Shown here: positions 13,933-64,000 of the stretch, in pieces
Numbering within the stretch: position 1 is the stretch's first letter
Layout: each line of letters starts with the position of its first letter
Assembly (NCBI RefSeq): GCF_032118995.1
Contig: NC_092653.1
Coordinates: 7,123,031 to 7,187,030 of the forward strand
Length of the DNA stretch: 64,000 nucleotides
Reading direction: 5' to 3'
Origin: Asterias amurensis
Lineage: Eukaryota
Position numbers and translations under genes: made by a program
Notes under the pieces: model-generated
What the model was told of the DNA's origin: nothing
Seen by the model: only the letters and a program-made list of their open reading frames with translations
Database searches by the model: none

Positions 13933-14124
13933 CTGTTCTAGCTGATTCTGCGTCATGACAGCCTTTGCCTCAGCGGCAGCTGCTTGCTCAGGCTTGTCTG
14001 CCTTCTCAGGCTCGACAGCCTTGGCTACCTTAGGCTCCTTCCCTGTTGGGATGTCCATCTCCTCGATGAGGACAGGCTCAGCTTCTCGTCTGTTGCTCAG
14101 ATTGAAGATGTCCGTAATGGTGTT
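13933..14124 (-). CDS. SRCAP: Domino-type ATPase exon (post-ATPase acidic region)
   Basis: Acceptor tttctctttgcag|AACACC, donor GAACAG|gtaagg. Peptide NTITDIFNLSNRREAEPVLIEEMDIPTGKEPKVAKAVEPEKADKPEQAAAAEAKAVMTQNQLEQ (compare SRCAP QTIRELFDMPLEEPSS...ILEQ). Confidence 0.8.
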
Positions 14125-14660
14125 CTGCAAAGAGAAATGGGATCAAGTTTGGTTTGATTACTAATTCTTGGGTACACTCACAGTAAAAAAGAGAAAAAAG
14201 AAGACAAAAAAGTGGTACACCAAAATGCAAGGGGCTTTACAGCTTTACAGATTTGCTGGACGAGTTTAAATAAAAACAAAAACCTCTATCTTGCAACAGG
14301 CATGACATATGGACCCTGGAAAAAAGTAGGAATACGTAAATATACTCATGATATAGGCTCTATTAATCACAGTCTAACGGATTGTTTTCAAAGAAGGGCA
14401 AAACAAAGCAGAAAACAGACTTATGTAGGAAGAATATCATGCCTGCTGCAATCAGGGAGATGTTTAGAAATACATTCAACGTAGTAGAGAAAAGTTTCCA
14501 TAATCAAGGATATTTTCAAAGTTGGTCATCAGAGCATGGAAAGATTGCTCTAGTTTCAGGGAACTTTCTGTGGAATCAGGGCAAGTTGGCTGCATCCTTG
14601 AGAATCAAATGTCAGGATTGTGATTCTCCTCCTTGGGCAAGAGGACGGAGCACTACTTAC

Positions 14661-14775
14661 CGTTTTGAAAAATGCTGTGGTGAAGTTACCTCCCTCGATG
14701 GACACATCAACCAAGAGTCTCTTCTGATTGGCCTTCTTTAAGATGTTCTCCTCTACGGTCATTTCACTGATCAAC
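14661..14775 (-). CDS. SRCAP: Domino-type ATPase exon, end of helicase C
   Basis: Acceptor ttgtgttgtag|GTTGATC, donor AAAACG|gtaagt, phase 2->0. Peptide RLISEMTVEENILKKANQKRLLVDVSIEGGNFTTAFFKT matches SRCAP RLISERTVEENILKKANQKRMLGDMAIEGGNFTTAYFKQ. Confidence 0.95.
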
Positions 14776-15869
14776 CTACAACACAAATAAATATTTAAAA
14801 AACAAAAACTTTGAATTTTGAATAAATCTGATGTAGAACTCAACCAGGATGAGCTTTTTTATATTGTTTGCATTGGTCAAACAATCCAAGAGAAAATGTA
14901 TAAAACATCATTCTGTATTCTTTGAACAAGTGCCAACCAGCATTGTCAACCATGTATTGTCATTATTTATTCAAATCCTTTCCCCATGATCCGACTTTCA
15001 CACAAAATCTACAATATTGGTGTAAACATTTTCAACAACGATAGCAATTTCAAAATCAAGTAATTTCACTGTGAAAACGTGGCTCAGAAAGATATGAGAC
15101 TGTCTCAACAACGCCTGTTAGACTCAGAGACTCTAGTCTGAAAAATCTCACTTGTCATCATTGCACACGGCAACAATCCTCTGGAAATCAGAAGACTTAT
15201 GGTCACTTGGAAATGGGTTTCTTTCTCCTCTTAACCAGGGCTCAACTTCACAGAGCTGCTTGAGCACACAATGGTGCTGCTAAGCAAAAATAAGCAGGAT
15301 ACCAGTCACAAATGTTAAATGTGACATTGTGTATTGGCTGGTAACCATATTGTGCTAAGCATGATTGTGATGGGCTGAGCTACTTTTAATGCGAACGTAG
15401 CTCTAGGAAATCAGGCCCAATTAAGAATGGAGGTTGGACACACATTGGGACACACTATCAGAAGTCGTTTAAACCTGCTTTTGTATACACCCAGAATACC
15501 GGAGTATTAACAGGCCTGGATATTCCATTGTGAAGCATGCACAGGCATGAACTAATTGTGCAATGTTTAACTGTAGACAGATGAAATTAATACTCAAAGA
15601 CGCCCCTTCTCAAGGTTTTGGGGGCAATTCCTAATCACAACGCTTTACAGAAACTCAACCTGTTTTTAAAACACAGGCAAGATCTTTTGTGGAAATATTG
15701 AATGCAACCCTAATTTTACAGCATCTTTGCATGGAGAGGAACCGTGGTGTAAATTGGTAAAACTGGAGGTGCGAACAAAGATGACTGCGTGGTCTTCCTT
15801 TTCTCAAAAGGAACAAATTTCACGAACTAAAATAAGGCACTACGGGAAACTGCATCTGAATCTACACAC

Positions 15870-16066
15870 CTGTAAATGTGAACGTCTCGTGTCTGTCCGA
15901 TCCTGTGGCAGCGATCTTGTGCCTGGGCGTCCATGGTAGGGTTCCAGTCACTGTCGTAGAAGACAACGGTATCGGCACCGGTCAAGTTGATGCCAAGACC
16001 ACCGCTACGGGTGGACAGGATGAAACAGAAGATGCGCTTGTCCATGTTGAATCGGTCCATTAGAAC
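15870..16066 (-). CDS. SRCAP: Domino-type ATPase exon, helicase C motifs V-VI
   Basis: Acceptor cgcccgacag|GTTCTAATG, donor ATTTACAG|gtgtgt, phase 0->2. Peptide [65 protein letters not shown] is nearly identical to SRCAP. Confidence 0.95.
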
Positions 16067-16392
16067 CTGTCGGGCGAAACGGTCATACTTGTGAAAAGAA
16101 AACGTCCGTACTTTCAATAATGTTACTTGGTATCAAACATCTCAACAACAAAAAGAAATATTAATTTGTGTCTCAGAAATGAATTCTGTTTGGCATGATA
16201 ATCAGCCAGCAGAACAGACTCTGAGACCCCGAGGTTTCAGGTTGATATAGAGCCACAGGATCGTGCCACATGAAGCATAGATATTCATCTGGCTAATTTA
16301 ACATGTGGCCCAATGCACGTTATTGGTATTTTAAAATTTTAATTGCTGTTTTAGTTTGCTAATGTATACATGTATATATCATAGACTGATCT

Positions 16393-16755
16393 TAAAGCCA
16401 TTGGACCCTTTCGGTACAAAAAAAAAAGTTCACAGATTTACAAATAACTTACAGGGTTTACAGAAGGTAGTGGTGAAATACTTCTCTTGCAATATTATTC
16501 CATGAAATGCTTTACTATTTGAGAAAACAGTAAAACAATATCAATTCTCGTTAACGAGAATTACGGATTTATTTTAAACGTATGTCATGACACGGAGAAA
16601 CGCGCGGATACAAGGGTGGGTTTTCCCGTTATTTTCTCCCGACTCCGATGACTGATTAAGCCCAAATTTTCACAGGTTTGTTATTTGATATAGAAGTTGT
16701 GATACAGTGTGGGCCTTGGACAATACTGTTTACCGAAAGGGTCCAATGGCTTTAT
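16393..16755. mobile_element. MITE family C (TIR TAAAGCCATTGGACCCTTTCGGTA)
   Basis: aaagccattggaccctttcggtac ... taccgaaagggtccaatggcttta. A truncated copy end sits at window positions 1-30. Confidence 0.75.
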
Positions 16756-17194
16756 TACTGTGGACAAATAATTTAACTTGAGTCACCAAAGGCACCCTGC
16801 TACACCTAAACCACAAATGCTGTCGATTGTTTTAGATATGAATAACAGTATTAGTGTAAATTGTAATCAAGCATAATTTTGTTTAGCCTTTGAGAAAGAC
16901 TCTGCTGGGGTCGAAACGTCAGGCCATTTACTATTTTAGGCAAGTATAATCAACATCAGGGATGGAGAATATTAATTTGTGTTTTACCCACCTCCCGTTT
17001 AGCATAACAAAATATGGCAGTTCCTGCTGCTTCATTGTTGGTGTCGAACTGCTTCTAGCTAATAGGCAAGTTGGGTGATCTAGTGGTCAATTTCATGGCC
17101 TTGCTTACCTCTTAAACCATATCATGGAAGCATTTGTCTAATTCCATGTAACCCTTTTTATGATCATTGCATGGTTCAATCTGACAATATTTAC

Positions 17195-17364
17195 CTGTCT
17201 CTGTTCCACTTTGGTGGTTCCATCCAGCCTGACGTAGATGTGGCCGTGATAGTTAAGGAAGCTTTCTAGTACATCCAGCATACGTGTCATCTGGGTGAAG
17301 ATCAGAACACGATGACTGCCCAGCTTTAGTTTCCGCAGTAGGAAATCTAGACTTTGAAGTTTGC
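17195..17364 (-). CDS. SRCAP: Domino-type ATPase exon, helicase C (motif IV region)
   Basis: Acceptor tgtggatttacag|GCAAAC, donor AGACAG|gtaaat, phase 1->0. Peptide GKLQSLDFLLRKLKLGSHRVLIFTQMTRMLDVLESFLNYHGHIYVRLDGTTKVEQRQ matches SRCAP GKLQTLAVLLRQLKAEGHRVLIFTQMTRMLDVLEQFLTYHGHLYLRLDGSTRVEQRQ. Confidence 0.95.
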
Positions 17365-17667
17365 CTGTAAATCCACAAGTTAAAAAAAAAAAAAACAATG
17401 AAGTAATTTGGCTTTCAAACTCTTTTCAGAATGAACACCTTTTAAAGTTGTTTAAAGCTTTTTTATTTTGTTAGATTAGATTTGGTTAACTGTTATTTAT
17501 AGTATACAATAAAATAAATAAAATAAAAACATCTCAAGACGATTGATCATATTTTGCCACAAATTTTTCACTCATTTTTACAAAAACGAACCTCATTTGA
17601 GTAAATTATATACTTTTTTATTTCATCGCAAATGAAAAAGTGGTGGCAGGATGCAATTCTATCTTAC

Positions 17668-17870
17668 CGCAGTCATACTGGATCAGTCTCAGCTCAGGGA
17701 AGTGCATGACCATTCCAGACTGGATGGGATGCAGGCACGATAGCCTGGGCGTCAACTCCTTACGCATTGTCTCGCTGAGCACCTTCTGCTGGTGGAGTAC
17801 CGAGGGCGCGGGGTGAGACACGTGCATGGTGATGGGGGGCGAGGTGGCCATGGGCACCATCATCACATAC
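17668..17870 (-). CDS. SRCAP: Domino-type ATPase exon leading into the C-lobe
   Basis: Acceptor tatttttgtag|GTATGTG, donor GACTGCG|gtaaga, phase 2->1. Peptide RYVMMMVPMATSPPITMHVSHPAPSVLHQQKVLSETMRKELTPRLSCLHPIQSGMVMHFPELRLIQYDC matches SRCAP ...FPDLRLIQYDCGKLQ. Confidence 0.9.
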
Positions 17871-18000
17871 CTACAAAAATACAGTCAGTGAAACTAAAAT
17901 CACACCAAACTCCAAGGATTATTAAACACACAATATTTTATTTGGTATGTTGCCTAATCACCATCAACAAAGAAGTGAAATAACCAAACACGGAATGAGA

Positions 18001-18112
18001 GAAAAATCAAATGGTCATCATTGGGATTTGAACCCAATTAGACCCCCCCCCCCCCCCCCCCGACACTCCAGGCAGATGCTCTACCAACTGAGCTATGACG
18101 CACAGCGGTATA
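18001..18112 (-). ncRNA. tRNA-derived SINE fragment or tRNA pseudogene interrupted by a poly-G(20) tract
   Basis: The - strand reads gcgtcatagctcagttggtagagcatctgcctggagtgtcg-G20-tctaattgggttcaaatcccaatgatgacca, with an A-box (TAGCTCAGTTGGTAGAGC) and B-box (GGTTCAAATCC). No intact acceptor stem. Similar fragments at 48480-48590 (poly-C14) and 37440-37530. Confidence 0.4.
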
Positions 18113-18941
18113 CTCCATCAGGTTTTCCCCAAGGACCACATTTTTTCTATCAGTGTTGCATGGATTATAAGAAAGAGACAAAATATCAAGAGACAATGTT
18201 GGAAATGTGTAATTCGGGTTGTGTTGGAAATGTGTAATTCGGGTTGCACATAGGAAAACGGCGCAACCCGAGAATGAGTCATTTCACATTTGTTTTTCGA
18301 AGTAACATACGGGCCGGAAAATGGGAGGTAAACATAAGCAGACCCCTGCCAAGCACTTCGGTAGAATTTATTAATAATAGTATAAAATAACTTTGAATTT
18401 TTATTGATACTTGAGTCACAATGTACTTTGTTACTAAAATTGTTTTCCAAATGTCAAATACAATGTTTAGCACAGGAAAATCTTGCTTATAAAAAAAAAG
18501 GTTACCAGCCAACATTCCATAAGGATCACATCGTTGCAAATGGTGTCCTACTCATTTATTGCTGAGCTAAGAAATTTGTTAGCAGTATAGACCGTATTGA
18601 ATATGACGTCTCTGTTCAAATATCTGTCCTACAAGTTGGCATCTGTGTGAATTTGCGTGGGTGTGTGCGTGCATGTGCTGTAGAAATCTAACGGGGAATG
18701 CTGCGTGCTTCATTGATGTAGGCGTTTGGACGCGCATAGTTTGACCTACAAGATAGCGACTTTCGTAGCAAAAAAAGGTTTATTCAATACGGTCTGTTGG
18801 TAGCAGTAGTTTCTGCTAACCAGCTTCATGAAATGGGCCAAGCCTTTATTATAATGGGGCCCTGTTGCATAATAACAATACCACGGTAGCTCAGACAAGG
18901 GTAAATTAGTTCTGTTTTCAGACAAAAAAATAAACACCCAC

Positions 18942-19258
18942 CTCTTAATGATCTCCTTCAAATCATCAATGATAACCTCCGGCGTCTTCACCAGACTCCT
19001 TAACGTACTTGTTTGGGAAATCCGTGCCTCCGTATTGTATGGAAAGGGAAGGCCGTGAATCCCCTGGCAATGGAACAGCCCCGTGCAGCTAGCAAAGGGC
19101 CGCTCTTCTCCTGCCGGGTGGGAACTGTTGAAGATTGAAACAGCCGAGCGGAGGTCGCTGCCGTAGGCTGGTTTGGTGTTACAGCGGATGTGGTTCAGAT
19201 TGGCTAGTCTGGCCAGTGTGGACTTGCGCTCCTTGATGCCATCCTGGTGTAAAGATTC
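18942..19258 (-). CDS. SRCAP: Domino-type ATPase exon (between insertion and C-lobe)
   Basis: Acceptor ctctgtttacag|GAATCT, donor ATTAAGAG|gtgggt, phase 0->2. Peptide ESLHQDGIKERKSTLARLANLNHIRCNTKPAYGSDL...LVKTPEVIIDDLKEIIK resembles SRCAP YLDSLEEKRKRQRSERLERIFQLSEAHGALAPVYGTEVL...LFPQQRLDQLSEIIER. Confidence 0.8.
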
Positions 19259-20147
19259 CTGTAAACAGAGAGAGGTAAATTTTGTGATTAGTTTTCGGTT
19301 ACCACACTGGTATGAAAATTAACAAAATTTCTACAAACAAAACTAACACAAGGAATAATTTCATTGAGCACTAAATGTTAATATTTATCAGCAATTGATG
19401 ATTTCTGAGTAGCATCTGACACATTTTGCTTAGTATTTTGCTATGCTATACAAGGGAAATTGCTCACTGAAAGACCAAGTTAAAAGCAAATTCATAAAAA
19501 CATTTTAGAAAAAATATATAAAATCACAAGTAGCCTGTTTGATGAAATACTTATGATAGGAGTACTTTGGGAAGAAGTACTGGCTCTGAAAAGAGCTTTT
19601 TGGGTCTGGACATTTCAACAATAAACTCCACTTGTCTTCAAAAGAAGAATTCCTTCCTAAAATCAAGCAAAGTAAAACTGTTTGAGACATAAGAGATTAA
19701 CACATGGATTCTCTGTATCCGCAAGTTGACTTGTAATAGCTACTTTTTATTATCCACACCACGCACAGCCTCAGACAAAGTTTGTGCAATTGTGATTTTA
19801 GAATGTCTCCGTCGTTTGGGGACCAGCATGATATCAAGTAAAACCATGATGGCTCGTGCTAAGGAGTTTTATTTCTGGCTTAGACCTTTAAACCAAAGCA
19901 GTATTGATGACCACTTGATAGAAAATAGGTCTAGCCTGTTTGTTAATACACTTAAAAAATCTTCCTTAGAAAATTTCAAAGTTGAACAGAAAATTGTCAC
20001 TCAAAACAATGCAAACTACATGGATTTCGACTTGCATAGCTGTTTTTTGCATTCAGGAAATTTTTGTTAAACTAAACTTTACTTACTAAGAAAAACGGTG
20101 AGTCTTTATCCTTTTGTGCCTTTTTCCTCAGATTCGATGCCTTTACC

Positions 20148-21706: not shown

Positions 21707-22765
21707 CTGGATTGGTAGATTGGAAGGAATAAGTTTTGAAGTCTTCAATAACGTTTGAATCAATTCAGTTTTGCTCTCTCAGAGGACAGGGGTTATTCAG
21801 AGACTGAAGAGAGATGGCACTCTGATGCTTGGTTAGTTGGTTTTTATCAGAATGTTAGCGTGACGTCAGTATCTGATGGAAATTTTAATCTGCTGTCAAA
21901 ACATTAGCTTCCTTCGGAGATTGGAAAAGTTAGATGCATCAAGGAGATACAGGAAGAAGTATAAAGATTTGAGAAAGAAACACTGGATGGCAAGACTGGA
22001 AACTTCATCTTTGAGAGGGCAAGGCCAATTTCATTTTACAAAGGGCACATCCACTGCAAAACCTTCAAGTCTATGGGATATAATGTTAATGGGGCACCAA
22101 GGCCAGGACCAGGGAAACAAGGGCTATGGCGTAATTCCAAGCCTGTGATAGAAAAATCCCACACATTATTCTACAGAGGTTAGTTAAGGCAGACTTTGAA
22201 GACTTATGGGACATTTGCAGTGCTATTGATTTATGAACAGTAAAAAAAGCTAGAGGGACCCCCCCTAACAGGCCCTGAAAGTAGTCCAGTGTTACCATAA
22301 GATGGAATATAGCAGGGCATTCAGGCAGTATAAACACACTTGCACAAGAGAAAACCGTTCATTTAGTTGTTACTGAAGTGGTTTTTTATTAAAACCTTAA
22401 CGAATCTTCAAAGAGTATTGTTTTACCGAAGAACACATGCAAACTCTACGATGTGCAGTGCTGTCTCATGCAAGGTTATAAGAACTACAGCCGAGACACA
22501 CAAGTTTGCACTCATTAAGGATGAATTGCCACATGGTTTTTCCTTCCCTTTGTTTTATTTTAAGAAAAATAAAAAATAAAACAGTTTTGTGAACAACAGG
22601 GCCGTAGGAAATTCAGCCACCAATCAAAACGAGGCAACATTTCTGGTAGAAAATAAATTACTCAAAATGAAAAACTACTTTAGGACAAAGCATCAGACTG
22701 CATAACTGGTCACGTACTTTTCAATCTCAAATCGGGATAATATGACATTATTTTTAAACCCATAC

Positions 22766-23434
22766 CTGTAGTGGTTTTAGCTATGCCTTCCTGAATCCTT
22801 TCTTTGGGTGTATCTGGTTTCTGAGGTGTAGGCATCTGCAGGCTGGGCGTCTGTGGTTTAGGTTGTACTACAGTCGGGGCCAACACGGGCTTGATACCTC
22901 CCACTTGTGAAAGGGTAACGTTCACCATCGGCGCCACAGACGCAATGGGTTTGGTGATCTGCTGTGGAGTCAGTCTGATCGACTGGGTCGTGGACGACAT
23001 GGTAGCTGTGCTTGTGGCCTGCGACTGCACAGCCTGCTGCTGCTGCTGCTGCTGCTGCTGGAGTTTCCGTTGCTGTTGCTGCAGCTGCTGTCGCTGCAGC
23101 TGTGCGAGTACTGATTGAAGCTGCTGGGAGGAGAATGTTGAGGTGGCCTGGCCTGCCGATGACGCCTGCGTCACTGCTTGCGCCAGGGCCTGTATGACAG
23201 TCTGTGCCTGGCTCTGGGCCAAGCTAGTCTGGCTTGTTGTCACTGACCCTTGGTTGAGGATGCTACCGGGTATCTGCGGGGAGGTGGCCTGCAGGGTCAT
23301 TTGGATGGGTACGGGACTGGAGCGAGATGGATTCTGCTGCTGCTGTTGTTGGGTTGTACTGGGTGATGTAAACCGAACAGCTGGTCGCAAGATTTGATGA
23401 CCGCTTGGCGTCTGAACAATTTGCACAATACCAC
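22766..23434 (-). CDS. SRCAP: Domino-type ATPase exon, Q-rich low-complexity insertion with a pure poly-Q run
   Basis: Acceptor tatctctgtttag|GTGGTATT, donor ACTACAG|gtatgg, phase 1->1, 669 bp stop-free. Peptide ...TTQQQQQQNPS...LQRQQLQQQQRKLQQQQQQQQQAVQSQ...KPQTPSLQMPTPQKPDTPKERIQEG. The (CTG)n run at 23030-23075 on + equals (CAG)n in the coding sense. Confidence 0.8.
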
Positions 23435-23869
23435 CTAAACAGAGATAACCACAAAAAACTGTTAACAATGTCAGGCATGATATTTGGCTCTTTGAAAAGG
23501 AAAGTAGAAACATTTTATCTAGTACAAGGGCTGACCTACATGAACACATGATGTAGGCATAAATAGACATTTCAGGCTACATAGTCACAACTTTTCTGAT
23601 TTTTCCCCCAAGGGCAAATCCAAATGGGAAAACATACTCAAGTAGGAAGACTATTATGCCCGTTGTATTAATTTATAATTATTATTTACTCAATAATTTA
23701 ATACAACGGGCATGACAGTCTTCCTACTAAAATGCTATTACACAACAAGTCTGTTAAGCAATACCAAAAACTTTTAAACTCTCATCAAGGGTAGTTTAAG
23801 GTTTGCAAGGAGAAAAAAAACGCAACCAAGTTTTTTTTTAAGCGGTACAATCTTTCCCTTTTAACTTAC

Positions 23870-48850: not shown

Positions 48851-49044
48851 CTATGGAGGGAAATTAGAAACTGATTAATTGACCATTAGGGAAAGACTTG
48901 CACAGCTTGAGTGTCCTTCAACAAAATGTTGATTTTTCCATCACAGCTTGGAATTCAGTACAACAATAATAAAATAAATGGGATTTTGAATCCATAGCTA
49001 GGGTTAGGAATAGCTGGAAAACAAAATACTTAAAGATTGTTTAC

Positions 49045-50163
49045 CTCATCATTGATTGTTATCTCTTCTTCACGGCCTTCCAGTTTCTGATTCATCATGT
49101 AGTTATGCAGAGTTGGACATGGCCGTTTCTTCCACGCTATGAAATCCATCATGTTGTGTCCATTCTCCAAGAAGAACAGCTCTATTAATCTCTCCTTGTA
49201 ACCTTCTTGCAAGTCATGCAAGGTTTCAAGTTTGTGCTCGAGTAAACGAGTTCTCAGTTCAGCCACCTCATTGGTGGCGGGGGGATGGTCTGTTTCAGAG
49301 GCCATCAGTGGGGATTTGCGCATTCGCGATGGACTGGACGGTATAGGGTTTGTCCGTGCTGGGCTGCTCAGACTTCTGTGGTAGGCACCGCCACCGGCTG
49401 TGGGGCTCTTCCGGTCTGGTGCACCTCGTGTGGGACTGTGGCTGCTCATTCTCCGTGCTGCGCCAAAGTTGAGTCCGGAACTTGACAATGGTGGCATGGT
49501 AGATCTGGGCGAGCCTTGACCATGGTGGTGTATGGTTCCCACTGGTTGATGGTGGCTGGGCAGCAGCAAGGACTGTAGTTGAATTTGCTCTTGCGATATC
49601 TGGGGCTCCTCTCCTAATGAAAATAGCTTCGGGGTGTTGTGAAAAACATACGGGTTTGTGGTCCCGATGCTAGTTGGTGGAGTATTGACACTCATCTGCT
49701 GCATAGAAAGCCCAGTGCTTGGATCCACAAAGCCAGGACTCAGCTGCAGATTGATCACCTGATTCGAAGTGCCTGCAATGAGCTGGGTCCGCAGGCTTGC
49801 CAGTTGCATGAAGGCTTGTTGCCTGGCGACATCCTGATGATTCTGCTGTTGCTGCTGCTGCTGCAGGACAACTGCTGAAGGTGACACCTGTGCATGCTGA
49901 GCTGGCACCCGTATGGGCGACGTTTGAATCGGGCGACTTGAGGCAACAACCTGTGCCCCTTGTACACCTGCAACTGGGTTGATGAGGTACTGTTGGAGGG
50001 TATGCTGTGGGACAACATATCCCGATGAGTGCGAAGGGAGACCTTGTGACAGGTCTATCGATCGCTGAGTGGTTTGTTGTTGCTGTGGTTGAGGTTGTTG
50101 TGGCGGAGACCCCAGCTTGTGGTAGACCCCGCTTTGACTGTCGTCACTGCTTCCCCTCTGCAT
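49045..50163 (-). CDS. SRCAP: Domino-type ATPase, first coding exon (exon extends to acceptor at 50187); Q-rich N-terminus with EP400_N-like segment
   Basis: Acceptor tcttttttag|GAC at 50187 with an in-frame TAG just upstream. ATG at 50163-50161 in context gtaaccATGc. Donor GATGAG|gtaaac. The peptide ...YKERLIELFFLENGHNMMDFIAWKKRP...EEEITINDE resembles the human EP400 N-terminal region (...[27 protein letters not shown]...EVINDE). Confidence 0.7.
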
Positions 50164-51961
50164 GGTTACCACAAGCTCCTTGGGGTCCTAAAAAAGACCA
50201 GACAAAAAAACAAACAAAAATTAAGATGTTTCAAAAGACAAACAAAACCTTTCTGAACAAACAGAGGACAGAAACAAATAAAAAATTAAGACATTTAAGA
50301 AGATTCTTTCTTAACCTTCAAGATCAAAATAAAAGTTGTCATTACAAGGATAGCAGCTAATCAATACAACATCATTTTGCAGGATGATTGCAACCACCCT
50401 TACACCCTTCTTTTGTCAAACGTAATTTTTCTATCCAAACACAGTGATCATTATCTAGGAGGATAATGTTGACTGTTTTGCAATGAGTGCAGATCATTGA
50501 GTAGTAGAAGACTAGCTAGCCATGCTTTTGTATTTACGCAATGTCCAAATTGGCAACTTTATGTAGGTTTAGCACTGATGGAGAGGACCACCTAGGAAAA
50601 TATATAATTGAAAAAATTAATAAATTTTGACACATTTTTTGTTTCGCTTATTGGGACATTTCCCTCAAAATTTTGATTTGATCCTTCTAAGGATGACTTT
50701 ATTCCCTTGTGAAAAAAAGGAAACTGTTTGCCACAATTGCATAAAACCTTTTGTGATCATAAAAATTTATTATCTAAGTGTGAAAAAATTTGCATTGGAA
50801 GAAGAAGGACAACTTTACAAATAATGTCAAAAGTGAAGTATCAAAAGTTTCACTCGCTGATTAATTGTGGGTCACATTGATGTTTGTTTATCTTGCATAT
50901 TGCACACTCTGCCATTTTTTGAGCCCTACAGCTTGCATTTAATCTGTTTAATGTTTAGGCTACCAGCAATACCATACTCATTAAATTAGTTTTACAGAAG
51001 ACAAACATTAATAGTTTTGCTTCCAATGTCAAGAAGACCTATTGTGTTTTAACATAAAGTTGACAAAACAGATTTTGAAAAAGTGTTCATATGGCGCCAC
51101 CACAATTGGAATTTGTTACTTAATTTCGCAAAGGAAGGATAACTTTCCGTATGGCACCACCACTTTTTCACTCATTTTTACAAAAAGGGATATCTCATTG
51201 AGGTAAATTAGATACTTTATTATTTCATATCAAATAAAAAAGTGGTGGCGCCATACGGAAACTTTTCCCAAAGGAATTCAATAAGTCTCAGTTTCTTACC
51301 ATTCATGCCATTGGCTTTGTTGAACTATTAAAATCCATAGGAAATTTGCAAAGTTTTTTTTGCGGTTGGTTTTCGACCCTAAAAATATCTATCTGACTGC
51401 TCCTTTTTTACTCATTCAAGTTGCTACCCAAATCAATATCTAATAATACACATCATAATTGCACAAGCAGCAATTTAATAAATATATCTACAAGGTAAAC
51501 GAGTACGTAGATGACTCTATTCTTAGATTTAGAAATAGAGCAGGAATTTAAAAGGGGGAAAATCAGTCAAACGAAAATTGAAGAAAGCTGCCATTATTTC
51601 TTACACTTTTTGGGCCAAAATTTCTATCAATCCCCAAAACCAAGGTAAAGTTGCAAACAATGTTAATTATAAAACCTCAAAACTGTACTAAAATCTAATA
51701 TTACTGGTGGAAGAAAGCGCCTGCACAGGTAGCAGACTACGGAGTGCGGGACAATTTCCCTGCGCCATGATGATCCAGCTACCTTCCCGGCCAACGTGTC
51801 ACGAGTATGCAGTGCAAATGTGCCGCACAATCCATTACATTGCCCTTGCGTTATCACAATGCACGGCACACAGTGTTTGGCATACAATCGCATGACATCA
51901 CGAGGCCGGCGAACGTCCATATTCCACCAACGAACACAACACAGAGACAAAATACACTTAC

Positions 51962-54236: not shown

Positions 54237-54612
54237 CAGTGGACACTATTGGTAATGTCAAAGACTAGCCTTCACAGTTGGTGTATCTCAAAATAAGCAT
54301 AAAATAACAAACCTGTGAAAATAAATTTGAGCTCAATCGGTCATCGAACTTGCGAGATAATAATGAAAGAAAAAAATACCCTCGTCACACGAAGTTGTGT
54401 GTGTTTAGATGGTTGATTTCGAGACCTCAAGTTCTAAATCTGAGGTTTCGAAATCAAATTCGTGGAAAATTACGTCATTCTCTAAAACTATGGTACTTCA
54501 GAGGGAGCCGTTTCTCACAACGTTTTATACTATCAACCTCTCGCCATTACTCGTCACCAAGTAAGGTTTTATGCCAATAATTATTTTGAGTAATTACCAA
54601 TAGTGTCCACTG
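54237..54612 (+). mobile_element. MITE family A, copy 2
   Basis: Same TIRs and same internal sequence (gagctcaat.ggtcatcgaa.ttgcgagataataatgaaagaaaaa...). Confidence 0.8.
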
Positions 54613-57215: not shown

Positions 57216-57327
57216 CTACTTGATCGCCTTGATGAAGACTGTCTCATCTGTCTCTGGGTAGACTGCTGGCAGCATGTCGTACTCTATCCAACCATCAGAC
57301 TTGACCTCGGCCTCCAATTTCTTTAAC
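57216..57327 (-). CDS. terminal coding exon of the tandem-repeat protein gene
   Basis: Acceptor ctgtcttctttctcacatacag|GTTAAAG at 57327 is exactly phase-compatible (phase 2) with the donor at 58960. Peptide (R)LKKLEAEVKSDGWIEYDMLPAVYPETDETVFIKAIK, then TAG at 57218-57216. Confidence 0.6.
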
Positions 57328-57824
57328 CTGTATGTGAGAAAGAAGACAGAGTTGACTTCTACCTATATAATCCTTTATCACGCTGTCTCCATCTTGGTCA
57401 TGTTCCCCGTTTCCAATAACAGTAATGAATGCTAACATTCAGTGCGCATGGCACCAGACTATTATTTCGTACAGCCTCAGTTTGGTTACAATGAGTTGGA
57501 ATGGAGTAAAATCATGATGGCCACACCGTGATAAAGGTCTATAGCCCAAGAGCTGTTCGGATTTGGAACAGGCTACCAGTGGCTACAGTCACTGCAACAA
57601 ATCTGCAAGGGTTCCAACAAGAAGCACTGTCAGCTATACGAGGGATGGAGGTTCCAATCTCTCTCAGGACAAACTGACAATACCACAACTTATAAAGAAC
57701 AATGTTGACAGCATATAAGCACAGAGCACAAATGGAGTTTGCAACCCACCCTCTCCAGGACAGCAGCAATGCTTTATAACAACTCAAGATTCAAGACATA
57801 GTTCGAATGTCAGCTTTTAAAGGC

Positions 57825-58166
57825 ACTGGACACTATTGGTAACTACTCAAAATATTTGTTAGTATAAAAACTTACTTGGTCACGAGTAATGGAGAGCTGT
57901 TGATAGTGAGAAACATCTCCCTCTGAAATAATGTAGTTATTGAGAAAGAAGTAAATTCTCACTAAAATATTTGAATTTGATTTCGAGATCTCAGAATTAG
58001 ATTTTGAGGTCCCGAAATCAAGCATCTGAAAGCACACAACTTTGTGTGACAAGAGTGTTTTTTCTTCCATTATTATCTCGCAACTTTCGACGACCAATTG
58101 AGCTCAAATTTTCACAGGTTTGTTATTTTGTGCATATGTTGAGACAATTACCAAAGGTGTCCAGTG
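57825..58166 (-). mobile_element. MITE family A, copy 3 (inverted), in the last intron of the repeat-protein gene
   Basis: TIRs cactggacactattggtaac ... attaccaaaggtgtccagtg. Confidence 0.75.
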
Positions 58167-58959
58167 TCTTTAAAGAGTTCAAACATATACCTCCTTTTCT
58201 CTGCAGTGTTGGCTTTCTTGAGTTCCTTAATCGTCGGGCGTCTGTTAAGCTTCACATTTCCCGATCGACGTCGTGCGGCAATTCTGTTCTTTCTTCCCCT
58301 CTTGAGCAACGTATCGTAGAAAATGCTGCGAAGGGCACTCTGGTGATCCTCCCTGTCCTTACTAGAGATCAAAGGCTCTTCCCATTCCAGTGGCATTGGG
58401 GTAATCAGGCCCTCACAAATGGCTCCTGTGGAAGTGAAATGTTCAAATAATTGTCACTTTCACAAGAAAATATTAAAAGATTTGTCAGACTGTAAATTAA
58501 CTATTAAAAATAGTTTATTCTTGTGTTTTAACACTTCAAGGCAATATAATAAAAGAATAAATCACTATTTCCAAATTCGAAAGCGATTCAGAGAGACATA
58601 TTCTTTCACCCAACTGAACCTGGTTATCTTTTACATACTGATTCAATTTGGATATATCAATTTTTTGATAATGACAAAATATTGACAACAAAAATCTTTA
58701 AAAGTGCTGTAACTGGGGCTCAATTTCATAGAGCTGCTGTAAAAGCAGTAAACGTAGCTCAATACAAAATATGAATGCTTACCAGACTACGATCAACAGC
58801 CATAACACCATGTCACATGTACTATTCATGACTGGTAACCTGCATCTTTTTGCTAAGCAGAAATGTTAAGCAAAAGTTCCTGCTACAGCAGCTCTATGAA
58901 ATTGGGCACAGGTAAACTGGCCTATAAACTAGGCAACAAGACCACTGACTTCAACTTAC

Positions 58960-61900
58960 TGTTAGTATCAGACTTGATGGTGTACATGATAGGGTCGTAA
59001 TTCTTGTCGCGGATCTCTCCAAAGTTGCAGCTGGCTTTCCAAGCATCTGGTTTCGCATCAGTGGCTGGAACATTCTCCATCATTTTTCTTGCTACCTCCT
59101 GTTTGAAAACCCCCAGAAGTTTACCCTTTTCCTTTAACAATCCATGGATTGGTGGATTTCTCAATCTCGTTTCGGTGACGATCTGTCCGCCATGACCAAC
59201 ATCATCACAATGACTGCCATCTCTCATATCATCAGCTTCCCTGAGATTTTTATCTCCATTACCAGTAGAGTTCCCTTCTCTATCTTTGTCTTCATCATCC
59301 ATGAGTTTGGCACCAAGGCTTTCGACATCATTGGAGCAATCATCGTACGAATCACTTTCTTCTTCGTCTTGATCTTTCACGCTTAAAACCAAATCTACAG
59401 CGTCAAAGTAACAATCACTATCGACGCTGTCTTTAGCGCTCTTTGAGCTGCTCTTACCCGATGACACAGTACTGTTTATCAAATTTGTCCATGCAAGATT
59501 TTTCTTTGATTTTGTTAATTTCAAGGTTTTCTTTTCTTTTGGTTGTCCTCCTTTGGTGTCTTCCTTTGTTTTTAATTTGGTAAACTTTGTGGATTGCGCC
59601 AAACTAGAAGTGCCTCCTTGCTCTTTATCTTCAGACTTCCCACCGGATGACAGTTGTTTATTCTTCTTTGTTGATTTTCTATCATTCATTAATTCTGCAA
59701 CAACTTCTGTTGCTTCCATTGTCTTTAAGGATCTTCTAAAATCACTCTTCTTCGGTGCATTTTTTATTTCTCCTTTGAGGGCTTTCTCTTGTTTTGCTGT
59801 TTTACTCTTTGTAGATTTTTTCAAACTACTGGCTTTGCCAATGATGCCTAGATCACCTTGATGGTCAGTGCCGACAGCATCTTCACCGGTATTATCAATT
59901 CTTGATTCTCCACAGTTGTCTTCAGAAGTTTTCTCAATGGGACTATTTTGAACATCCACTTGTTTAGTCTTCCTTGCCAGTTTAGTCTTTACCTTTTTAC
60001 TCTCTGTCTGCGTCTCTGTCTTCTCCAACAGTGTTTTGTTTTTCAACTTCTTAAGCGGTCTGCTCTTGTCTGGTTCACCTTCCTTCCTTTTTCTTAAATC
60101 ACAACTGTTTTTAACTTGTTTACTCTTTGGTGAATTTCTTTCTTTCCGTTCTCCTTCTTGGGCATTTGTCTTTGTCAATGTCTTCTTTTTGGATTGTCTC
60201 GGGCTCTCTATCAGTTTACCATTGTCCACTCTTTCATTGCAGTTGTCCAAACTAAGGTTCTTTTCCATGCTTTCTGTCAGGACAGATTTTATCTTGGATT
60301 TGCCCATGTCAGCCATTTCAGGTAGAGTTTTTTGTGTCAACTTTTTATGTGATTTGCTCTTGTACAATAATCCATCGTAATTTCGGGGGTAATCTTGTTC
60401 CCTGTCCGATCTATCTTTGTCTTCATCATCCATGAGTTTGCCACCAAGGCTTTCGACATCATTGGAGCAATCATCGTACGAATCACTTTCTTCTTCGTCT
60501 TGATCTTTCACGCTTAAAACCAAATCTACAGAGTCAAAGTAACAATCACCATCGTCGCTGTCTTTAGCGCTCTTTGAGCTGCTCTTACCCGATGACACAG
60601 TACTGTTCATCAATTTTGTCTTGTACAAAAATCCATCGTAATTTCGGGGGTAATCTTGTTCCCTGTCCGTTCGATCAAGACTCTTTTTGATATTTTTCCT
60701 CTGAGGTGGTTTTCCTTTTTTCAAATGTCCATCTTTGGTTTGTTTGTCTGTCGTTAATAGTGTCACCTTTCCGGACTGTTTCAAAGAGCTTGTTTGACTC
60801 TTATCATCATGACTACCTTCATCTGATGTCATTATTGCATCATCCCCGTTTTCATTTTCGTCATCACCAAGGCCCTCATCACAGCCATTTAAGCTTTGCT
60901 CACTTAAACTCCTTGACTCTCCATGTTGCTCCCCAGATGTCGATTGCTGATGGTTGTTTTTTCCATCTTCTTTTGTGTTCCTCGGTTTTGTCTTTTCCCG
61001 AGTAGAAACCCCTCTGTTTTTTACTGTATCCGCTTCAGACAACAATCCGGTCAGTTTCTGTAGATTTTTCCTCTGAGGTGGTTTTCCTTTTTTCAAAAGT
61101 CCATCTTTGGTTTGTTTGTCTGTCGTTAATTGTGTCACCTTTCTGGACTGTTTCAAAGAGCTGGTTTGACTCTTATCATCATGACTACCTTCATCTGATG
61201 ATGTCATTATTGCATCATCCCCGTTTTCATTTTCGTCATCACCAAGGCCCTCATCACAGCCATTTAAGCTTTGCTCACCTAAACTCCTTGACTCTCCATG
61301 TTGCTCCCCAGACGTCGATTGCTGATGGTCGTTTTTTCCATCTTCTTTAGTGTTCCTCGATTTTGTCTTTTCCCGAGTAGAAACCCCTCTGTTTTTTACT
61401 GTTTCCGCTTCAGACAACAATCCGGTCAGTTTCTGTAGATTTTTCCTCTGAGGTGGTTTTCCTTTTTTCAAAAGTCCATCTTTGGTTTGTTTGTCTGTCG
61501 TTAATTGTGTCACCTTTCCGGACTGTTTCAAAGAGCTGGTTTGACTCTTATCATCATGACTACCTTCATTTGATGATGTCATTATTGCATCATCCCTGTT
61601 TTCATTTTCGTCATCACCAAGGCCCTCATCACAGCCATTTAAGCTTTGCTCACCTAAACTCCTTGACTCTCCATGTTGCTCCCCAGATGTCGATTGCTGA
61701 TGGTCGTTTTTTCCATCTTCTTTAGTGTTCCTCGATTTTGTCTTTTCCCGAGTAGAAACCCCTCTGTTTTTTACTGTTTCCGCTTCAGACAACAATCCGG
61801 TCAGTTTCTGTAGATTTTTCCTCTGAGGTGGTTTTCCTTTTTTCAAAAGTCCATCTTTGGTTTGTTTGTCTGTCGTTAATTGTGTCACCTTTCCGGACTG

Positions 61901-64000
61901 TTTCAAAGAGCTGGTTTGACTCTTATCATCATGACTACCTTCATCTGATGATGTCATTATTGCATCATCCCCGTTTTCATTTTCGTCATCACCAAGGCCC
62001 TCATCACAGCCATTTAAGCTTTGCTCACCTAAACTCCTTGACTCTCCATGTTGCTCCCCAGACGTCGATTGCTGATGGTCGTTTTTTCCATCTTCTTTAG
62101 TGTTCCTCGATTTTGTCTTTTCCCGAGTAGAAACCCCTCTGTTTTTTACTGTTTCCGCTTCAGACAACAATCCGGTCAGTTTCTGTAGATTTTTCCTCTG
62201 AGGTGGTTTTCCTTTTTTCAAAAGTCCATCTTTGGTTTGTTTGTCTGTCGTTAATTGTGTCACCTTTCCGGACTGTTTCAAAGAGCTGGTTTGACTCTTA
62301 TCATCATGACTACCTTCATCTGATGATGTCATTATTGCATCATCCCCGTTTTCATTTTCGTCATCACCAAGGCCCTCATCACAGCCATTTAAGCTTTGCT
62401 CACCTAAACTCCTTGACTCTCCATGTTGCTCCCCAGACGTCGATTGCTGATGGTCGTTTTTTCCATCTTCTTTAGTGTTCCTCGATTTTGTCTTTTCCCG
62501 AGTAGAAACCCCTTTGTTTTTTACTGTTTCCGCTTCAGACAACAATCCGGTCAGTTTCTGTAGATTTTTCCTCTGAGGTGGTTTTCCTTTTTTCAAAAGT
62601 CCATCTTTGGTTTGTTTGTCTGTCGTTAATTGTGTCACCTTTCCGGACTGTTTCAAAGAGCTGGTTTGACTCTTATCATCATGACTACCTTCATCTGATG
62701 ATGTCATTATTGCATCATCCCCGTTTTCATTTTCGTCATCACCAAGGCCCTCATCACAGCCATTTAAGCTTTGCTCACCTAAACTCCTTGACTCTCCATG
62801 TTGCTCCCCAGACGTTGATTGCTGATGGTCGTTTTTTCCATCTTCTTTAGTGTTCCTCGATTTTGTCTTTTCCCGAGTAGAAACCCCTCTGTTTTTTACT
62901 GTTTCCGCTTCAGACAACAATCCGGTCAGTTTCTGTAGATTTTTCCTCTGAGGTGGTTTTCCTTTTTTCAAAAGTCCATCTTTGGTTTGTTTGTCTGTCG
63001 TTAATTGTGTCACCTTTCCGGACTGTTTCAAAGAGCTGGTTTGACTCTTATCATCATGACTACCTTCATTTGATGATGTCATTATTGCATCATCCCTGTT
63101 TTCATTTTCGTCATCACCAAGGCCCTCATCACAGCCATTTAAGCTTTGCTCACCTAAACTCCTTGACTCTCCATGTTGCTCCCCAGATGTCGATTGCTGA
63201 TGGTCGTTTTTTCCATCTTCTTTAGTGTTCCTCGATTTTGTCTTTTCCCGAGTAGAAACCCCTCTGTTTTTTACTGTTTCCGCTTCAGACAACAATCCGG
63301 TCAGTTTCTGTAGATTTTTCCTCTGAGGTGGTTTTCCTTTTTTCAAAAGTCCATCTTTGGTTTGTTTGTCTGTCGTTAATTGTGTCACCTTTCCGGACTG
63401 TTTCAAAGAGCTGGTTTGACTCTTATCATCATGACTACCTTCATTTGATGATGTCATTATTGCATCATCCCTGTTTTCATTTTCGTCATCACCAAGGCCC
63501 TCATCACAGCCATTTAAGCTTTGCTCACCTAAACTCCTTGACTCTCCATGTTGCTCCCCAGATGTCGATTGCTGATGGTCGTTTTTTCCATCTTCTTTAG
63601 TGTTCCTCGATTTTGTCTTTTCCCCAGTAGACACCCCTCTGTTTTTTACTGTTTCCGCTTCAGACAACAATCCGGTCAGTTTCTGTAGATTTTTCGCTTT
63701 TCTCTTCACCAATAGTCCACTGTTGTCTGGATCATATTCCAAACTTTCTGTCCGACTAAGACTCTTCTTTGTTTTTGGTCCCTTCGCTGATTTTCTTCCT
63801 CTCCGTAATCCAGCTTCGGTGACTTCTTTTGACTGTGTTGCTGTTGTAGTTTTTTGGATGATGCTACATTCACCTGAAACTCCTCTATTTTCATCATCTG
63901 TCGAATTCACAATAGTATCATCACTATCTGAGCCACCAATGTCCTCTTCAATGTCCTTGATACCATCTTGCTCAGTTCTGTCAATGTTTGTTTGGCCATC
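58960..64000 (-). CDS. large exon of a tandem-repeat protein gene (5' partial; runs off the window); K/E/D/S/T-rich, predicted disordered
   Basis: Open frame continuous from the window edge (64000) to the donor ACTAACAG|gtaagt at 58959-58954. The supplied track starts the ORF at an internal GTG (63910). It contains 8 tandem 125-aa units, a second duplicated acidic module, and a unique C-proximal segment ...ARKMMENVPATDAKPDAWKASCNFGEIRDKNYDPIMYTIKSDTNS. Plus-strand frames are closed every repeat. Confidence 0.7.
59275..59490 (-). repeat. copy 1 of a second duplicated coding module (acidic DSDDGDCYFDSVDLVLSVKDQDEEESDSYDDCSNDVESLG.KLMDDEDKDR)
   Basis: Near-identical nucleotide copy of 60405-60620. 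There is also a 48-bp duplicate at 60362-60410 and 60618-60665 (YDG.LYK.K motif). Confidence 0.8.
60405..60620 (-). repeat. copy 2 of the second duplicated coding module
   Basis: See 59275-59490. Confidence 0.8.
60690..63705 (-). repeat. 375-bp (125-codon) tandem coding repeat, ~8 copies, >95% identical
   Basis: The unit recurs at 375-nt spacing (+ strand landmarks 61078, 61453, 61828, 62203, 62578, 62953, 63328). Unit peptide KNLQKLTGLLSEAETVKNRGVSTREKTKSRNTKEDGKNDHQQSTSGEQHGESRSLGEQSLNGCDEGLGDDENENRDDAIMTSSNEGSHDDKSQTSSLKQSGKVTQLTTDKQTKDGLLKKGKPPQR. Only a few substitutions separate copies (R/G, N/D, G/R). Confidence 0.9.

What the first reader, a model, noticed from the sequence alone, without database searches (positions are those of the whole stretch)
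57216..64000. Undescribed gene built from near-identical 125-aa tandem coding repeats with a nested second duplication
From the window edge to 58960 there is an open minus-strand frame of more than 5 kb. A phase-matched splice to a 36-codon terminal exon (57216-57327) gives a protein of more than 1,700 aa. Residues from about 60.7 to 63.7 kb are 8 head-to-tail copies of a 375-nt unit (125 aa, K/E/D/S/T/Q-rich) that differ by only a handful of substitutions. That points to very recent expansion or ongoing concerted evolution. Downstream a second, unrelated acidic module (DSDDGDCYFDSVDLVLSVKDQDEEESDSYDDCSNDVESLG) is duplicated with about 1.1 kb spacing. The unique C-terminal ~90 aa (...DAWKASCNFGEIRDKNYDPIMYTIKSDTNSRLKKLEAEVKSDGWIEYDMLPAVYPETDETVFIKAIK) matches no domain I recognise. 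One caveat matters. Because 375 is divisible by 3, one stop-free unit automatically keeps every copy open. The real evidence for coding is therefore the stop-free 580-codon non-repeat flank, the strong GTAAGT donor, the phase-exact acceptor 1.6 kb away, and closed frames on the opposite strand. Copy number is likely polymorphic and may be collapsed in assemblies.
Basis: seen in the sequence. Interest (0 to 1): 0.8.

Follow-up and report, generated by a model that had tools for sequence, protein, structure and literature searches.

The report
Sea-star gene with expanded coding repeat
This is the 3' two-thirds of a real sea-star gene, already predicted in Asterias rubens as "uncharacterized protein LOC117290414", in which one 125-amino-acid stretch of a long, apparently unstructured protein has recently been copied eight times in a row; this is an ordinary kind of change in a protein of unknown function.

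Summary
The repeat is real. TRF finds 8.0 copies of a 375-nt unit at 60692-63695 with 98% matches. It lies in a minus-strand frame that stays open from the window edge to 58922. The 577 non-repeat codons have 0 stops against 40.6 expected.

The gene is not unknown. It is the orthologue (97-98% nt identity in exons, downstream EP400 neighbour shared) of Asterias rubens LOC117290414 (XP_033627698.1, 2870 aa, "uncharacterized").

A 235-nt exon (58425-58191) lies between the giant exon and the terminal exon. Joining 58960 directly to 57327 gives ...SDTNS-stop. The three-exon model gives 1795 aa ending ...FIKAIK.

A. rubens has only one copy of the 375-nt unit. It has its own in-frame duplications instead (1176 nt x2, 174 nt x1.9). 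Every duplication spacing in both genomes is a multiple of 3.

The giant exon evolves almost neutrally (dN/dS 0.91). Exons 2-3 are conserved (0.9% divergence against 3.4% in introns).

Pfam and PDB give no significant match. One exhaustive phmmer search, run without exon 2, found only the A. rubens protein and one borderline motif hit.

Best reading: a lineage-specific coding minisatellite in a disordered, probably nuclear protein. Low to moderate interest.

The parts
58960..64000 (-). Giant coding exon, cut off by the window edge. About 4449 nt (1483 codons) of it lie beyond base 64000, judged from A. rubens.
   Evidence: Open frame. Collinear with A. rubens L002 14450-18266 at 97-98% identity. 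A. rubens exon 1 is 10001-18266.
63692..64000 (-). Unique coding sequence upstream of the array (103 codons, includes DIGGSDSDDT and an RRGRK basic patch).
   Evidence: Ten nt differences from A. rubens, dN/dS 0.33.
60695..63691 (-). Eight in-frame tandem units of 375 nt (125 aa): U1 63691-63317, U2 63316-62942, U3 62941-62567, U4 62566-62192, U5 62191-61817, U6 61816-61442, U7 61441-61067, U8 61066-60695 (372 nt).
   Evidence: TRF (which gives 60692-63695). Register and pairwise differences. One copy only in A. rubens, L002 14759-15133.
60613..60676 (-). First copy of a 64-nt direct repeat (...DREQDYPRNYDG[FL]LYK...). The second copy is at 60352-60415, 92% identical, 261 nt apart.
   Evidence: family D2.
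60410..60620 (-). Upstream copy of the 211-nt acidic module (…STVSSGKSSSKSAKDSDDGDCYFDSVDLVLSVKDQDEEESDSYDDCSNDVESLG…).
   Evidence: family D1: 97% identical to 59279-59489, 1131 nt spacing (377 codons).
59279..59489 (-). Downstream copy of the 211-nt acidic module.
   Evidence: family D1. Orthologous to L002 17254-17464.
59163..59171 (-). Site where the window lacks 161 codons relative to A. rubens (9 nt here against L002 17572-18063, 492 nt). The difference is in frame.
   Evidence: block ends; the extra segment LGMRKNLQ...SKPLV in P0008.
58426..58959 (-). Intron 1 (534 nt, GTAAGT...CCACAG). It contains a short element with 24-nt inverted ends (58718-58907).
   Evidence: It is 3.5% diverged from the A. 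rubens intron.
58191..58425 (-). It encodes (R)AICEGLITPMPLEWEEPLISSKDREDHQSALRSIFYDTLLKRGRKNRIAARRRSGNVKLNRRPTIKELKKANTAEKR(R).
   Evidence: Present in the A. rubens protein model. Restores the frame. AF2 predicts two helices, mean pLDDT 77.7.
57328..58190 (-). Intron 2 (863 nt, GTATAT...ATACAG). It contains a MITE-like element at 57816-58174.
57216..57327 (-). Terminal coding exon (...LKKLEAEVKSDGWIEYDMLPAVYPETDETVFIKAIK, stop TAG at 57218-57216).
   Evidence: Matches the end of the A. rubens protein.

Best explanation
The window comes from an Asterias-type sea star, either a congener or a divergent haplotype of A. rubens. Positions 57216-64000 (minus strand) hold the last about 1795 codons of the orthologue of A. 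rubens LOC117290414.

Shown:
- The gene has three coding exons: one giant exon, a 235-nt exon and a 112-nt terminal exon.
- The giant exon encodes a highly charged, serine/threonine-rich, low-hydrophobicity polypeptide with no confident predicted fold.
- This exon is repeatedly remodelled by in-frame segmental duplication and deletion.
- The 8 x 375-nt array is the largest such event and is specific to the window's lineage, or has been lost from the A. rubens reference.

Inferred:
- The array most likely arose by unequal crossing-over or replication slippage, and is kept homogeneous by the same process. The edge units (U1, U8) retain ancestral states and private changes. The interior units are nearly identical.
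- Selection keeps the reading frame open and conserves the short helical C-terminal part (exons 2-3). The amino-acid sequence and length of the disordered part drift almost neutrally.
- The protein is intracellular and probably nuclear. The A. rubens N-terminus shows no hydrophobic signal-peptide-like stretch by eye, and there are many K/R clusters.
- It probably acts as a long flexible scaffold or spacer anchored through its C-terminal helices. Each extra unit adds one acidic and two basic patches.
For: Orthology:
- phmmer against 1.84 billion representatives returns a 2870-aa protein at E 1.4e-118. This is XP_033627698.1 of A. rubens.
- Its locus L002 is collinear with the window at 97-98% identity in exons and 91-96% in non-coding DNA. 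EP400 lies downstream in both.

Gene model:
- The A. rubens exons are 10001-18266, 18784-19018 and 19898-20009, all with GT/AG boundaries.
- The same three-exon model in the window gives a 5388-nt frame with a single terminal stop.

Coding status:
- 0 stops in 577 non-repeat codons against 40.6 expected.
- All duplication spacings are multiples of 3: 375, 1131 and 261 nt in the window; 1176, 174, 159, 258 and 276 nt in A. rubens.
- Differences between the two genomes in the exon are in frame where their lengths are defined: the seven extra 375-nt units, a 3-nt deletion in U8, the 1176-nt A. rubens duplication and a net 483-nt difference at 59163-59171. The two genomes also arrange the acidic-module region differently. 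Only 3 of 10 indels in introns and the 3' flank are multiples of 3.

Recency:
- One unit in A. rubens.
- U2 = U6, and the other interior units differ by 1-6 nt. Seven sites are fixed between all window units and the A. rubens unit. U1 and U8 keep the A. rubens state at columns 67 and 163.

Constraint:
- dN/dS is 0.91 overall.
- Exons 2+3 are 0.87% diverged against 3.4% for introns (p = 0.011). The giant exon is 2.5% diverged (p = 0.15).

Disorder and charge:
- The unit has K+R 16%, D+E 18%, S+T 22%, hydrophobic residues 13% and GRAVY -1.54.
- AF2 on 180 aa of the giant exon gives pLDDT 38.5.
- Exon 2 alone gives two helices at pLDDT 77.7.
- There are 15-20 K/R clusters.
Against: - No transcript data were available, so the exon junctions rest on the RefSeq model of the sister genome and on phase and GT-AG logic.
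- dN/dS near 1 and near-intron divergence would also fit a sequence with little protein-level function. The absence of nonsense changes is only weakly significant (expected 2.9, P(0) = 0.054).
- The single-copy state in A. rubens could be a contraction or an assembly collapse rather than the ancestral state. There is no outgroup.
- Nuclear localisation and the scaffold role are inferred from composition only.
- SIM-like motifs are not enriched over shuffles.
- AF2 was run without an alignment, so low pLDDT is weak evidence of disorder.
Confidence: 0.8

Rival explanations
1. The array copy number is an assembly artefact. Either it is over-expanded in this assembly, or the true A. rubens array was collapsed to one unit, so that there is no real difference between the genomes.
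For: Near-identical 375-nt units are a classic source of mis-assembly. Only one assembly of each genome was seen.
Against: - The units carry an ordered pattern of private and shared variants: type A in U1, U2 and U6, type B in U3, U4, U5 and U7, and a diverged edge unit U8. This pattern is expected of a read-spanned array, not of a consensus stutter.
- A 3-kb array is shorter than typical long reads.
- The A. rubens flanks join cleanly across a single unit.
Confidence: 0.1
2. The giant exon is effectively a neutrally drifting sequence, a decaying or barely functional young gene. Its open frame persists only because too little time has passed. The repeat would then be a plain minisatellite that happens to lie in it.
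For: - dN/dS is 0.91.
- Giant-exon divergence is not significantly below intron divergence (p = 0.15).
- P(no nonsense change) is only 0.054.
- No homologue was found outside Asterias among 1.84 billion representatives.
Against: - An 8.3-kb ORF in A. rubens and more than 5 kb here cannot be open by chance.
- All eight duplication spacings are multiples of 3, as are the exon length differences between the genomes that could be measured.
- The older internal duplicates in A. rubens, at 60-85% identity, are still in frame. The frame has therefore been kept far longer than the split between the two genomes.
- Exons 2-3 are significantly conserved.
Confidence: 0.1
3. The expansion is adaptive. Each 125-aa unit is a docking module, for example a phospho-dependent or SUMO-dependent binding site as in the KNL1 MELT arrays or the Ki-67 repeats, and copy number tunes valency.
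For: - Each unit has an acidic, serine-rich patch around a small hydrophobic core (DDAIMTSSDEGSHDD) and two basic patches.
- Both lineages independently duplicated parts of the same exon.
Against: - No Pfam match to K167R, MELT, Knl1 RWD or any other family.
- The five non-synonymous and three synonymous differences among the units give no sign of selection.
- dN/dS of the unit against A. rubens is 1.03.
- SIM-like motifs are not enriched.
Confidence: 0.1

Closest known systems
Asterias rubens LOC117290414 (XP_033627698.1 / XP_033627699.1, 'uncharacterized protein', 2870 aa; LR699096.1 6.62-6.64 Mb)
   Same: - Same position upstream of EP400.
- Same three coding exons with the same splice sites.
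- 97-98% nt identity in the giant exon and about 99% in exons 2-3.
- Same C-terminus ...ETDETVFIKAIK.
   Different: - One 125-aa unit instead of eight.
- It carries a 1176-nt tandem duplication that the window does not have in this form (the window has a different 1131/261-nt arrangement).
- It has 161 extra codons before the C-terminal region.
- A. rubens also has a 174-nt duplication, but its counterpart would lie beyond the window edge and cannot be compared.
Coding minisatellites (VNTRs) in intrinsically disordered regions. Length variation of coding tandem repeats is reported to correlate with IDRs in yeast (bioRxiv 10.1101/339663, abstract seen). Recently formed tandem repeats that create IDRs are reported in Borg elements (PMC9879509, abstract seen).
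   Same: - In-frame tandem units.
- Near-identical copies.
- Copy number differs between close relatives.
- Located in a charged, low-hydrophobicity segment.
   Different: The unit is long (375 nt, 125 aa). The host gene had no significant homologue outside Asterias in the searches run, and its function is unknown.
Ki-67 (MKI67): 16 repeats of about 122 aa encoded in one giant exon of a large charged nuclear protein (from my own knowledge, not tested against a sequence here)
   Same: - Unit length of about 120-125 aa.
- Repeats confined to one giant exon.
- Highly charged protein with many basic clusters.
   Different: - No Pfam K167R or FHA match in the window protein or in the full A. rubens protein.
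- The units here are 97-100% identical and lineage-specific, not ancient.
- This is a resemblance of architecture only.

Membership tests
Orthologue of A. rubens LOC117290414 | High sequence identity over the whole alignable length | tested here: met
   phmmer E 1.4e-118. Megablast blocks at 95-98% identity from window 64000 to 56973.
Orthologue of A. rubens LOC117290414 | Conserved gene order (next gene downstream is EP400, same strand) | tested here: met
   EP400_N exon at 49030-50172 on the minus strand. L002 has an HSA/SNF2/Helicase_C gene downstream of LOC117290414. The intergenic DNA is collinear. The upstream ERM neighbour lies outside the window.
Orthologue of A. rubens LOC117290414 | Same exon-intron structure and splice phases | tested here: met
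   GT/AG sites at equivalent positions in both genomes. The three-exon CDS is open to a single terminal stop.
Coding minisatellite / VNTR | Head-to-tail units whose length is a multiple of 3, in frame within a real ORF | tested here: met
   Period 375, 8.0 copies. The frame is open through the array and both flanks.
Coding minisatellite / VNTR | Copy number varies between individuals or close relatives | tested here: met
   Eight units here against one in the A. rubens reference. Variation within a population could not be tested.
Non-coding satellite DNA | No reading-frame constraint, and dispersed or long arrays outside genes | tested here: not met
   The array sits inside a conserved ORF. 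The unit is found nowhere else in the window.
Ki-67 family | K167R repeat (Pfam PF08065) and an N-terminal FHA domain | tested here: not met
   No Pfam family at E <= 0.1 in the full A. rubens protein. None at E <= 1 for the unit except an insignificant UPF0524 hit.
KNL1 family | MELT repeat modules and C-terminal RWD domains | tested here: not met
   No Pfam hit. No PDB sequence hit at E <= 10.
RPEL-motif actin-binding proteins (PHACTR/MRTF) | RPEL repeat (PF02755) above the gathering score, usually three or more copies | tested here: not met
   One sub-threshold match in exon 2 (E 0.041, 14 bits against a cut-off of 23). It is not reported when the 194-aa C-terminus is scanned.
Poly-SIM (SUMO-interacting motif) proteins | Several hydrophobic cores ([VIL]x[VIL][VIL] and similar) flanked by acidic or serine runs, more than composition predicts | tested here: inconclusive
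   The duplicated module has FD[SA]VDLVLSVKDQDEEESDS. Counts are not above shuffles: 2 in the window and 6 in A. rubens, against means of 2.4 and 5.3. SUMO binding cannot be tested here.

The most novel reading that the evidence does not exclude
LOC117290414 is a taxonomically restricted sea-star gene, with no significant homologue outside Asterias in the searches run. In it, selection acts on the reading frame and the C-terminal helices only. The more than 8-kb disordered exon is a free-running generator of in-frame segmental duplications. The 1-versus-8 difference in 125-aa units between sister genomes then changes the valency of a nuclear or chromosomal scaffold, in the manner of the Ki-67 or KNL1 repeat arrays, with functional consequences.
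Probability: 0.1. Interest if true: 0.5.

Novelty: new member of a known kind. Interest (0 to 1): 0.25.

Why it matters
The main value is as a corrected annotation and a clean small example.

- Two very close sea-star genomes differ by seven extra 125-aa units, a 392-aa duplication and a 161-aa deletion inside one exon. All of these are in frame, while the amino-acid sequence drifts at dN/dS of about 0.9.
- This illustrates how disordered regions change length quickly under frame-only constraint.
- It also flags a copy-number marker that may be polymorphic in Asterias, some of whose species are invasive.
- It does not open a long-standing question, and the protein's function remains unknown.

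Tried and rejected
1. Rejected: the direct join gives AGT TAA.

2. The search for homologous proteins with the 616-aa C-terminal region and with the correct 184-aa C-terminus. Both returned nothing, not even the 95%-identical A. rubens protein that is in the collection. These negatives are tool misses and carry no weight.

3. Pfam on the unit, the flank, exon 2, the full A. rubens protein, the 194-aa C-terminus and the A. rubens N-terminal 1274 aa. Only sub-threshold noise came back (UPF0524, SLATT_5, RPEL, IFP_35_N).

4. PDB sequence search with the C-terminus and with the full A. rubens protein at E <= 10. No hits. This argues against my leads from memory: INCENP IN-box, shugoshin C-box, a bZIP basic region and RPEL.

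5. AF2 of exon 2 gave two helices and no globular fold. Foldseek against the PDB found nothing better than E = 7.

6. AF2 of the acidic module plus the exon-1 tail gave pLDDT 38.5.

7. The contig L001 comes from an unnamed ENA metagenome assembly and carries an EP400_N exon with 83% aa identity. I found no trace of the target's exons in its 8.7 kb upstream.

8. A JGI metagenome scan with exon 2 found nothing.

9. The poly-SIM hypothesis: motif counts are not above shuffles.

10. A literature search for the locus name found no papers.
Full report
**Observation**

Tandem Repeats Finder reports one array in 55-64 kb: 60692-63695, period 375, 8.0 copies, 98% matches, no indels. Translated on the minus strand from base 64000, the frame is open for 1692 codons down to a TAG at 58922-58924. 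The two other minus frames are littered with stops.

In register the units are U1 63691-63317 through U7 61441-61067, each 375 nt, and U8 61066-60695, 372 nt. U1-U7 differ pairwise by 0-6 nt, and U2 and U6 are identical. Eight sites vary among U1-U7, five non-synonymous and three synonymous. U8 carries seven private substitutions and a 3-nt deletion.

The weight therefore lies on the flanks.
- The 577 non-repeat codons between the array and 58960 have 0 in-frame stops, against 33 and 64 in the other two frames.
- Composition-matched shuffles give 40.6 stops on average, so Poisson P(0) is about 2e-18.

The second duplication is also real. It is 211 nt at 60410-60620 and 59279-59489, 97% identical and 1131 nt apart. 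A further 64-nt repeat lies at 60613-60676 and 60352-60415, 92% identical and 261 nt apart. The 375-nt unit occurs nowhere else in the window.

**What the locus is**

The window is eukaryotic. An exon at 49030-50172 (minus) carries the Pfam EP400_N domain.

Run against 1.84 billion representative proteins, it returned two hits.
- A 2870-aa protein at E 1.4e-118.
- One borderline motif match at E 2.2e-4.

The first hit is XP_033627698.1/XP_033627699.1, 'uncharacterized protein LOC117290414 [Asterias rubens]'. Its locus (L002; LR699096.1 6615728-6645736) lies between an ezrin/radixin/moesin-type gene and EP400.

The window is collinear with this locus from base 64000 through the EP400 exon. Identity is 97-98% in the giant exon and 91-96% in non-coding DNA. 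Intron mismatch divergence is 3.4-3.5%. The window is therefore a congener or a strongly divergent haplotype of A. rubens. Long-read assemblies of A. amurensis exist (PMC10625585 and PMC11090083, listed), but I could not determine which species this is.

**Gene model**

The A. rubens protein maps exactly onto three coding exons with GT/AG borders: 10001-18266, 18784-19018 and 19898-20009. Its C-terminus reads ...YTIKSDTN | RAICEGLITPMPLEWEEPL...ANTAEKR | RLKKLEAEV...FIKAIK.

The middle segment is present in the window at 58425-58191. The acceptor is CCACAG| and the donor is |GTATAT.

The giant exon ends at 58960 with one base of a codon (AAC A|GTAAGT). With exon 2 (235 nt) the phase carries correctly into 57327. 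The concatenated 5388 nt translate to 1795 aa with a single terminal stop.

So the donor and the terminal exon were placed correctly. The 'phase-exact' junction and the quoted C-terminal peptide are wrong. About 1483 codons of the gene lie beyond the window edge, judged from A. rubens.

**Comparison of the two genomes**

A. rubens has a single 375-nt unit at L002 14759-15133. The giant exon also differs in other ways.
- A. rubens has a 1176-nt tandem duplication (99% identical). It runs from the last 31 codons of the unit through the acidic module.
- A. rubens has a 174-nt duplication (x1.9, 98%) and older duplicates at 159, 258 and 276 nt spacing, 78-83% identical.
- The window has the 1131/261-nt arrangement instead.
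- The window lacks 161 codons that A. rubens has at L002 17572-18063.

Every one of these spacings and length differences is a multiple of 3. Only 3 of 10 indels in the two introns and the 3' flank are multiples of 3.

Seven sites separate all eight window units from the A. rubens unit. U1 alone shares the A. rubens base at column 67, and U8 alone shares it at column 163. This is the usual picture of an array homogenised in its interior, with older edge units. It indicates expansion after most of the divergence between the two genomes. Alternatively the array is ancestral, evolved in concert here, and contracted in A. rubens. Without an outgroup I cannot tell these apart.

**Selective constraint**

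Nei-Gojobori estimates over 2472 aligned coding sites give dS 0.025, dN 0.023 and dN/dS 0.91. The unit itself gives 1.03, and the 414-codon block downstream gives 1.18.
- Giant-exon divergence (2.5%) is not significantly below intron divergence (3.4%, p = 0.15).
- Exons 2+3 are clearly conserved: 3 differences in 345 nt, 0.87%, p = 0.011.
- The expected number of nonsense changes among the observed substitutions is 2.9, so their absence is only weak evidence (P = 0.054).

The strong evidence for a maintained protein comes from three observations: the ORF length, the in-frame structural changes, and old internal duplicates that are still in frame.

**What the protein may do**

- No Pfam family reaches significance for the unit, the flank, exon 2, the 194-aa C-terminus, the A. 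rubens N-terminal 1274 aa or the whole A. rubens protein.
- No PDB sequence matches at E <= 10.
- The unit is 16% K+R, 18% D+E, 22% S+T and 13% hydrophobic, with GRAVY -1.54. The whole protein is a near-neutral polyampholyte with 15-20 K/R clusters.
- The A. rubens N-terminus shows no hydrophobic signal-peptide-like stretch and has several S/T-P-x-K/R sites.
- AF2 without an alignment gives pLDDT 38.5 for 180 aa of the giant exon.
- For exon 2, AF2 gives two helices at residues 21-54 and 65-76 with pLDDT 77.7. Foldseek finds no related fold.
- The duplicated acidic module resembles a SUMO-interaction motif (VDLVLSV followed by DQDEEESDS). Such motifs are not more frequent than in shuffled sequence.

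I therefore commit only to this. It is an intracellular, probably nuclear, largely disordered protein. Its conserved, helical C-terminal region of about 150 aa is the likely interaction end. Its disordered body tolerates gain and loss of large in-frame blocks. Each extra unit adds one acidic and two basic patches. The structural statements are shown; localisation and the scaffold role are inferred.

**Comparison with known things**

The gene is a member, by orthology, of an already predicted but uncharacterised RefSeq locus. No paper in the held library names it.

The repeat is an ordinary coding minisatellite in a disordered region. That class is known to vary quickly in length (abstracts of 10.1101/339663 and PMC9879509).

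Ki-67 has the same architecture (about 122-aa repeats in one giant exon), and KNL1 also has lineage-specific repeat arrays. Every testable defining feature of those two families fails.

**Limits**

- No transcript or read data were available.
- The exhaustive protein search was run before I knew of exon 2, so exon 2 has only been searched with tools that gave unreliable or narrow negatives.
- The search for homologous proteins missed the A. rubens protein twice, so its negatives are discounted.

**Verdict**

It is partly wrong: the gene is not undescribed, and the splice and C-terminus are incorrect. Interest is low to moderate.

Noticed in passing
window 6774-50172 (minus strand): The rest of the window is largely one big gene, the EP400/Domino-type chromatin remodeller. 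An EP400_N exon (PF15790) lies at 49030-50172. A 1328-codon Q/P/S-rich exon at 6774-10760 ends in an AT-hook-like KRGRGRPRKHP. A Q-rich ORF lies at 22710-23570.
   Followed up: partly
window 57816-58174 (intron 2); also 1548-1841, 54286-54606, 16610-16686: A MITE-like element of about 360 bp has 27-nt terminal inverted repeats (TTTAAAGGCACTGGACACTATTGGTAA, 89% complementary). Three further copies at 78-81% identity lie elsewhere in the window. A second small element with 24-nt inverted ends lies in intron 1 (58718-58907).
   Followed up: partly
window 18016-18100 (minus strand): Rfam reports a tRNA match just at the gathering score (29.9 against 29 bits, E 0.035). ARAGORN finds no tRNA anywhere in the window. 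It is probably a tRNA-derived repeat or a pseudogene inside an EP400 intron.
   Followed up: partly
window 59080-59160 (minus strand); P0009 residues 530-830: The motif NPPIHGLLKEKGKLLGVFKQEVARK occurs twice in the A. rubens protein. It matches a unit repeated about seven or more times in an unnamed 1172-aa ENA protein: P[IV]H..[LM]KE.GK.LG[IV]FK..VA.K, up to 15/29 identical, phmmer E 2.2e-4 over the whole library. It may be a shared short linear motif. Its meaning is unknown.
   Followed up: partly
window 58191-58425 (exon 2): Exon 2 contains a bZIP-like basic stretch (KRGRKNRIAARRRS) inside a confidently predicted long helix. It also contains an RPEL-like RRPTIKELKKAN (Pfam RPEL E 0.041, below the cut-off). 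Neither reaches significance.
   Followed up: yes
L002 13821-14147 and 15041-17393 (A. rubens): The A. rubens copy of the gene has its own recent in-frame duplications that the window lacks in this form or cannot show. They are 174 nt x1.9 (98%) and 1176 nt x2 (99%). The exon is a recurrent site of segmental duplication in both genomes.
   Followed up: yes
L001 (ENA ERZ26222911 contig, 11840 bp): A contig from a metagenome assembly carries an EP400_N exon 83% identical in protein to the window's. It presumably comes from a related animal. No homologue of the target's last exons lies in the 8.7 kb upstream. A 115-aa ORF there has a Nckap1 Pfam hit.
   Followed up: partly
tool behaviour: The word-indexed protein search returned nothing for queries that are about 95% identical to a protein present in its own collection (XP_033627698.1). 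Its negative results for this locus are not informative.
   Followed up: yes
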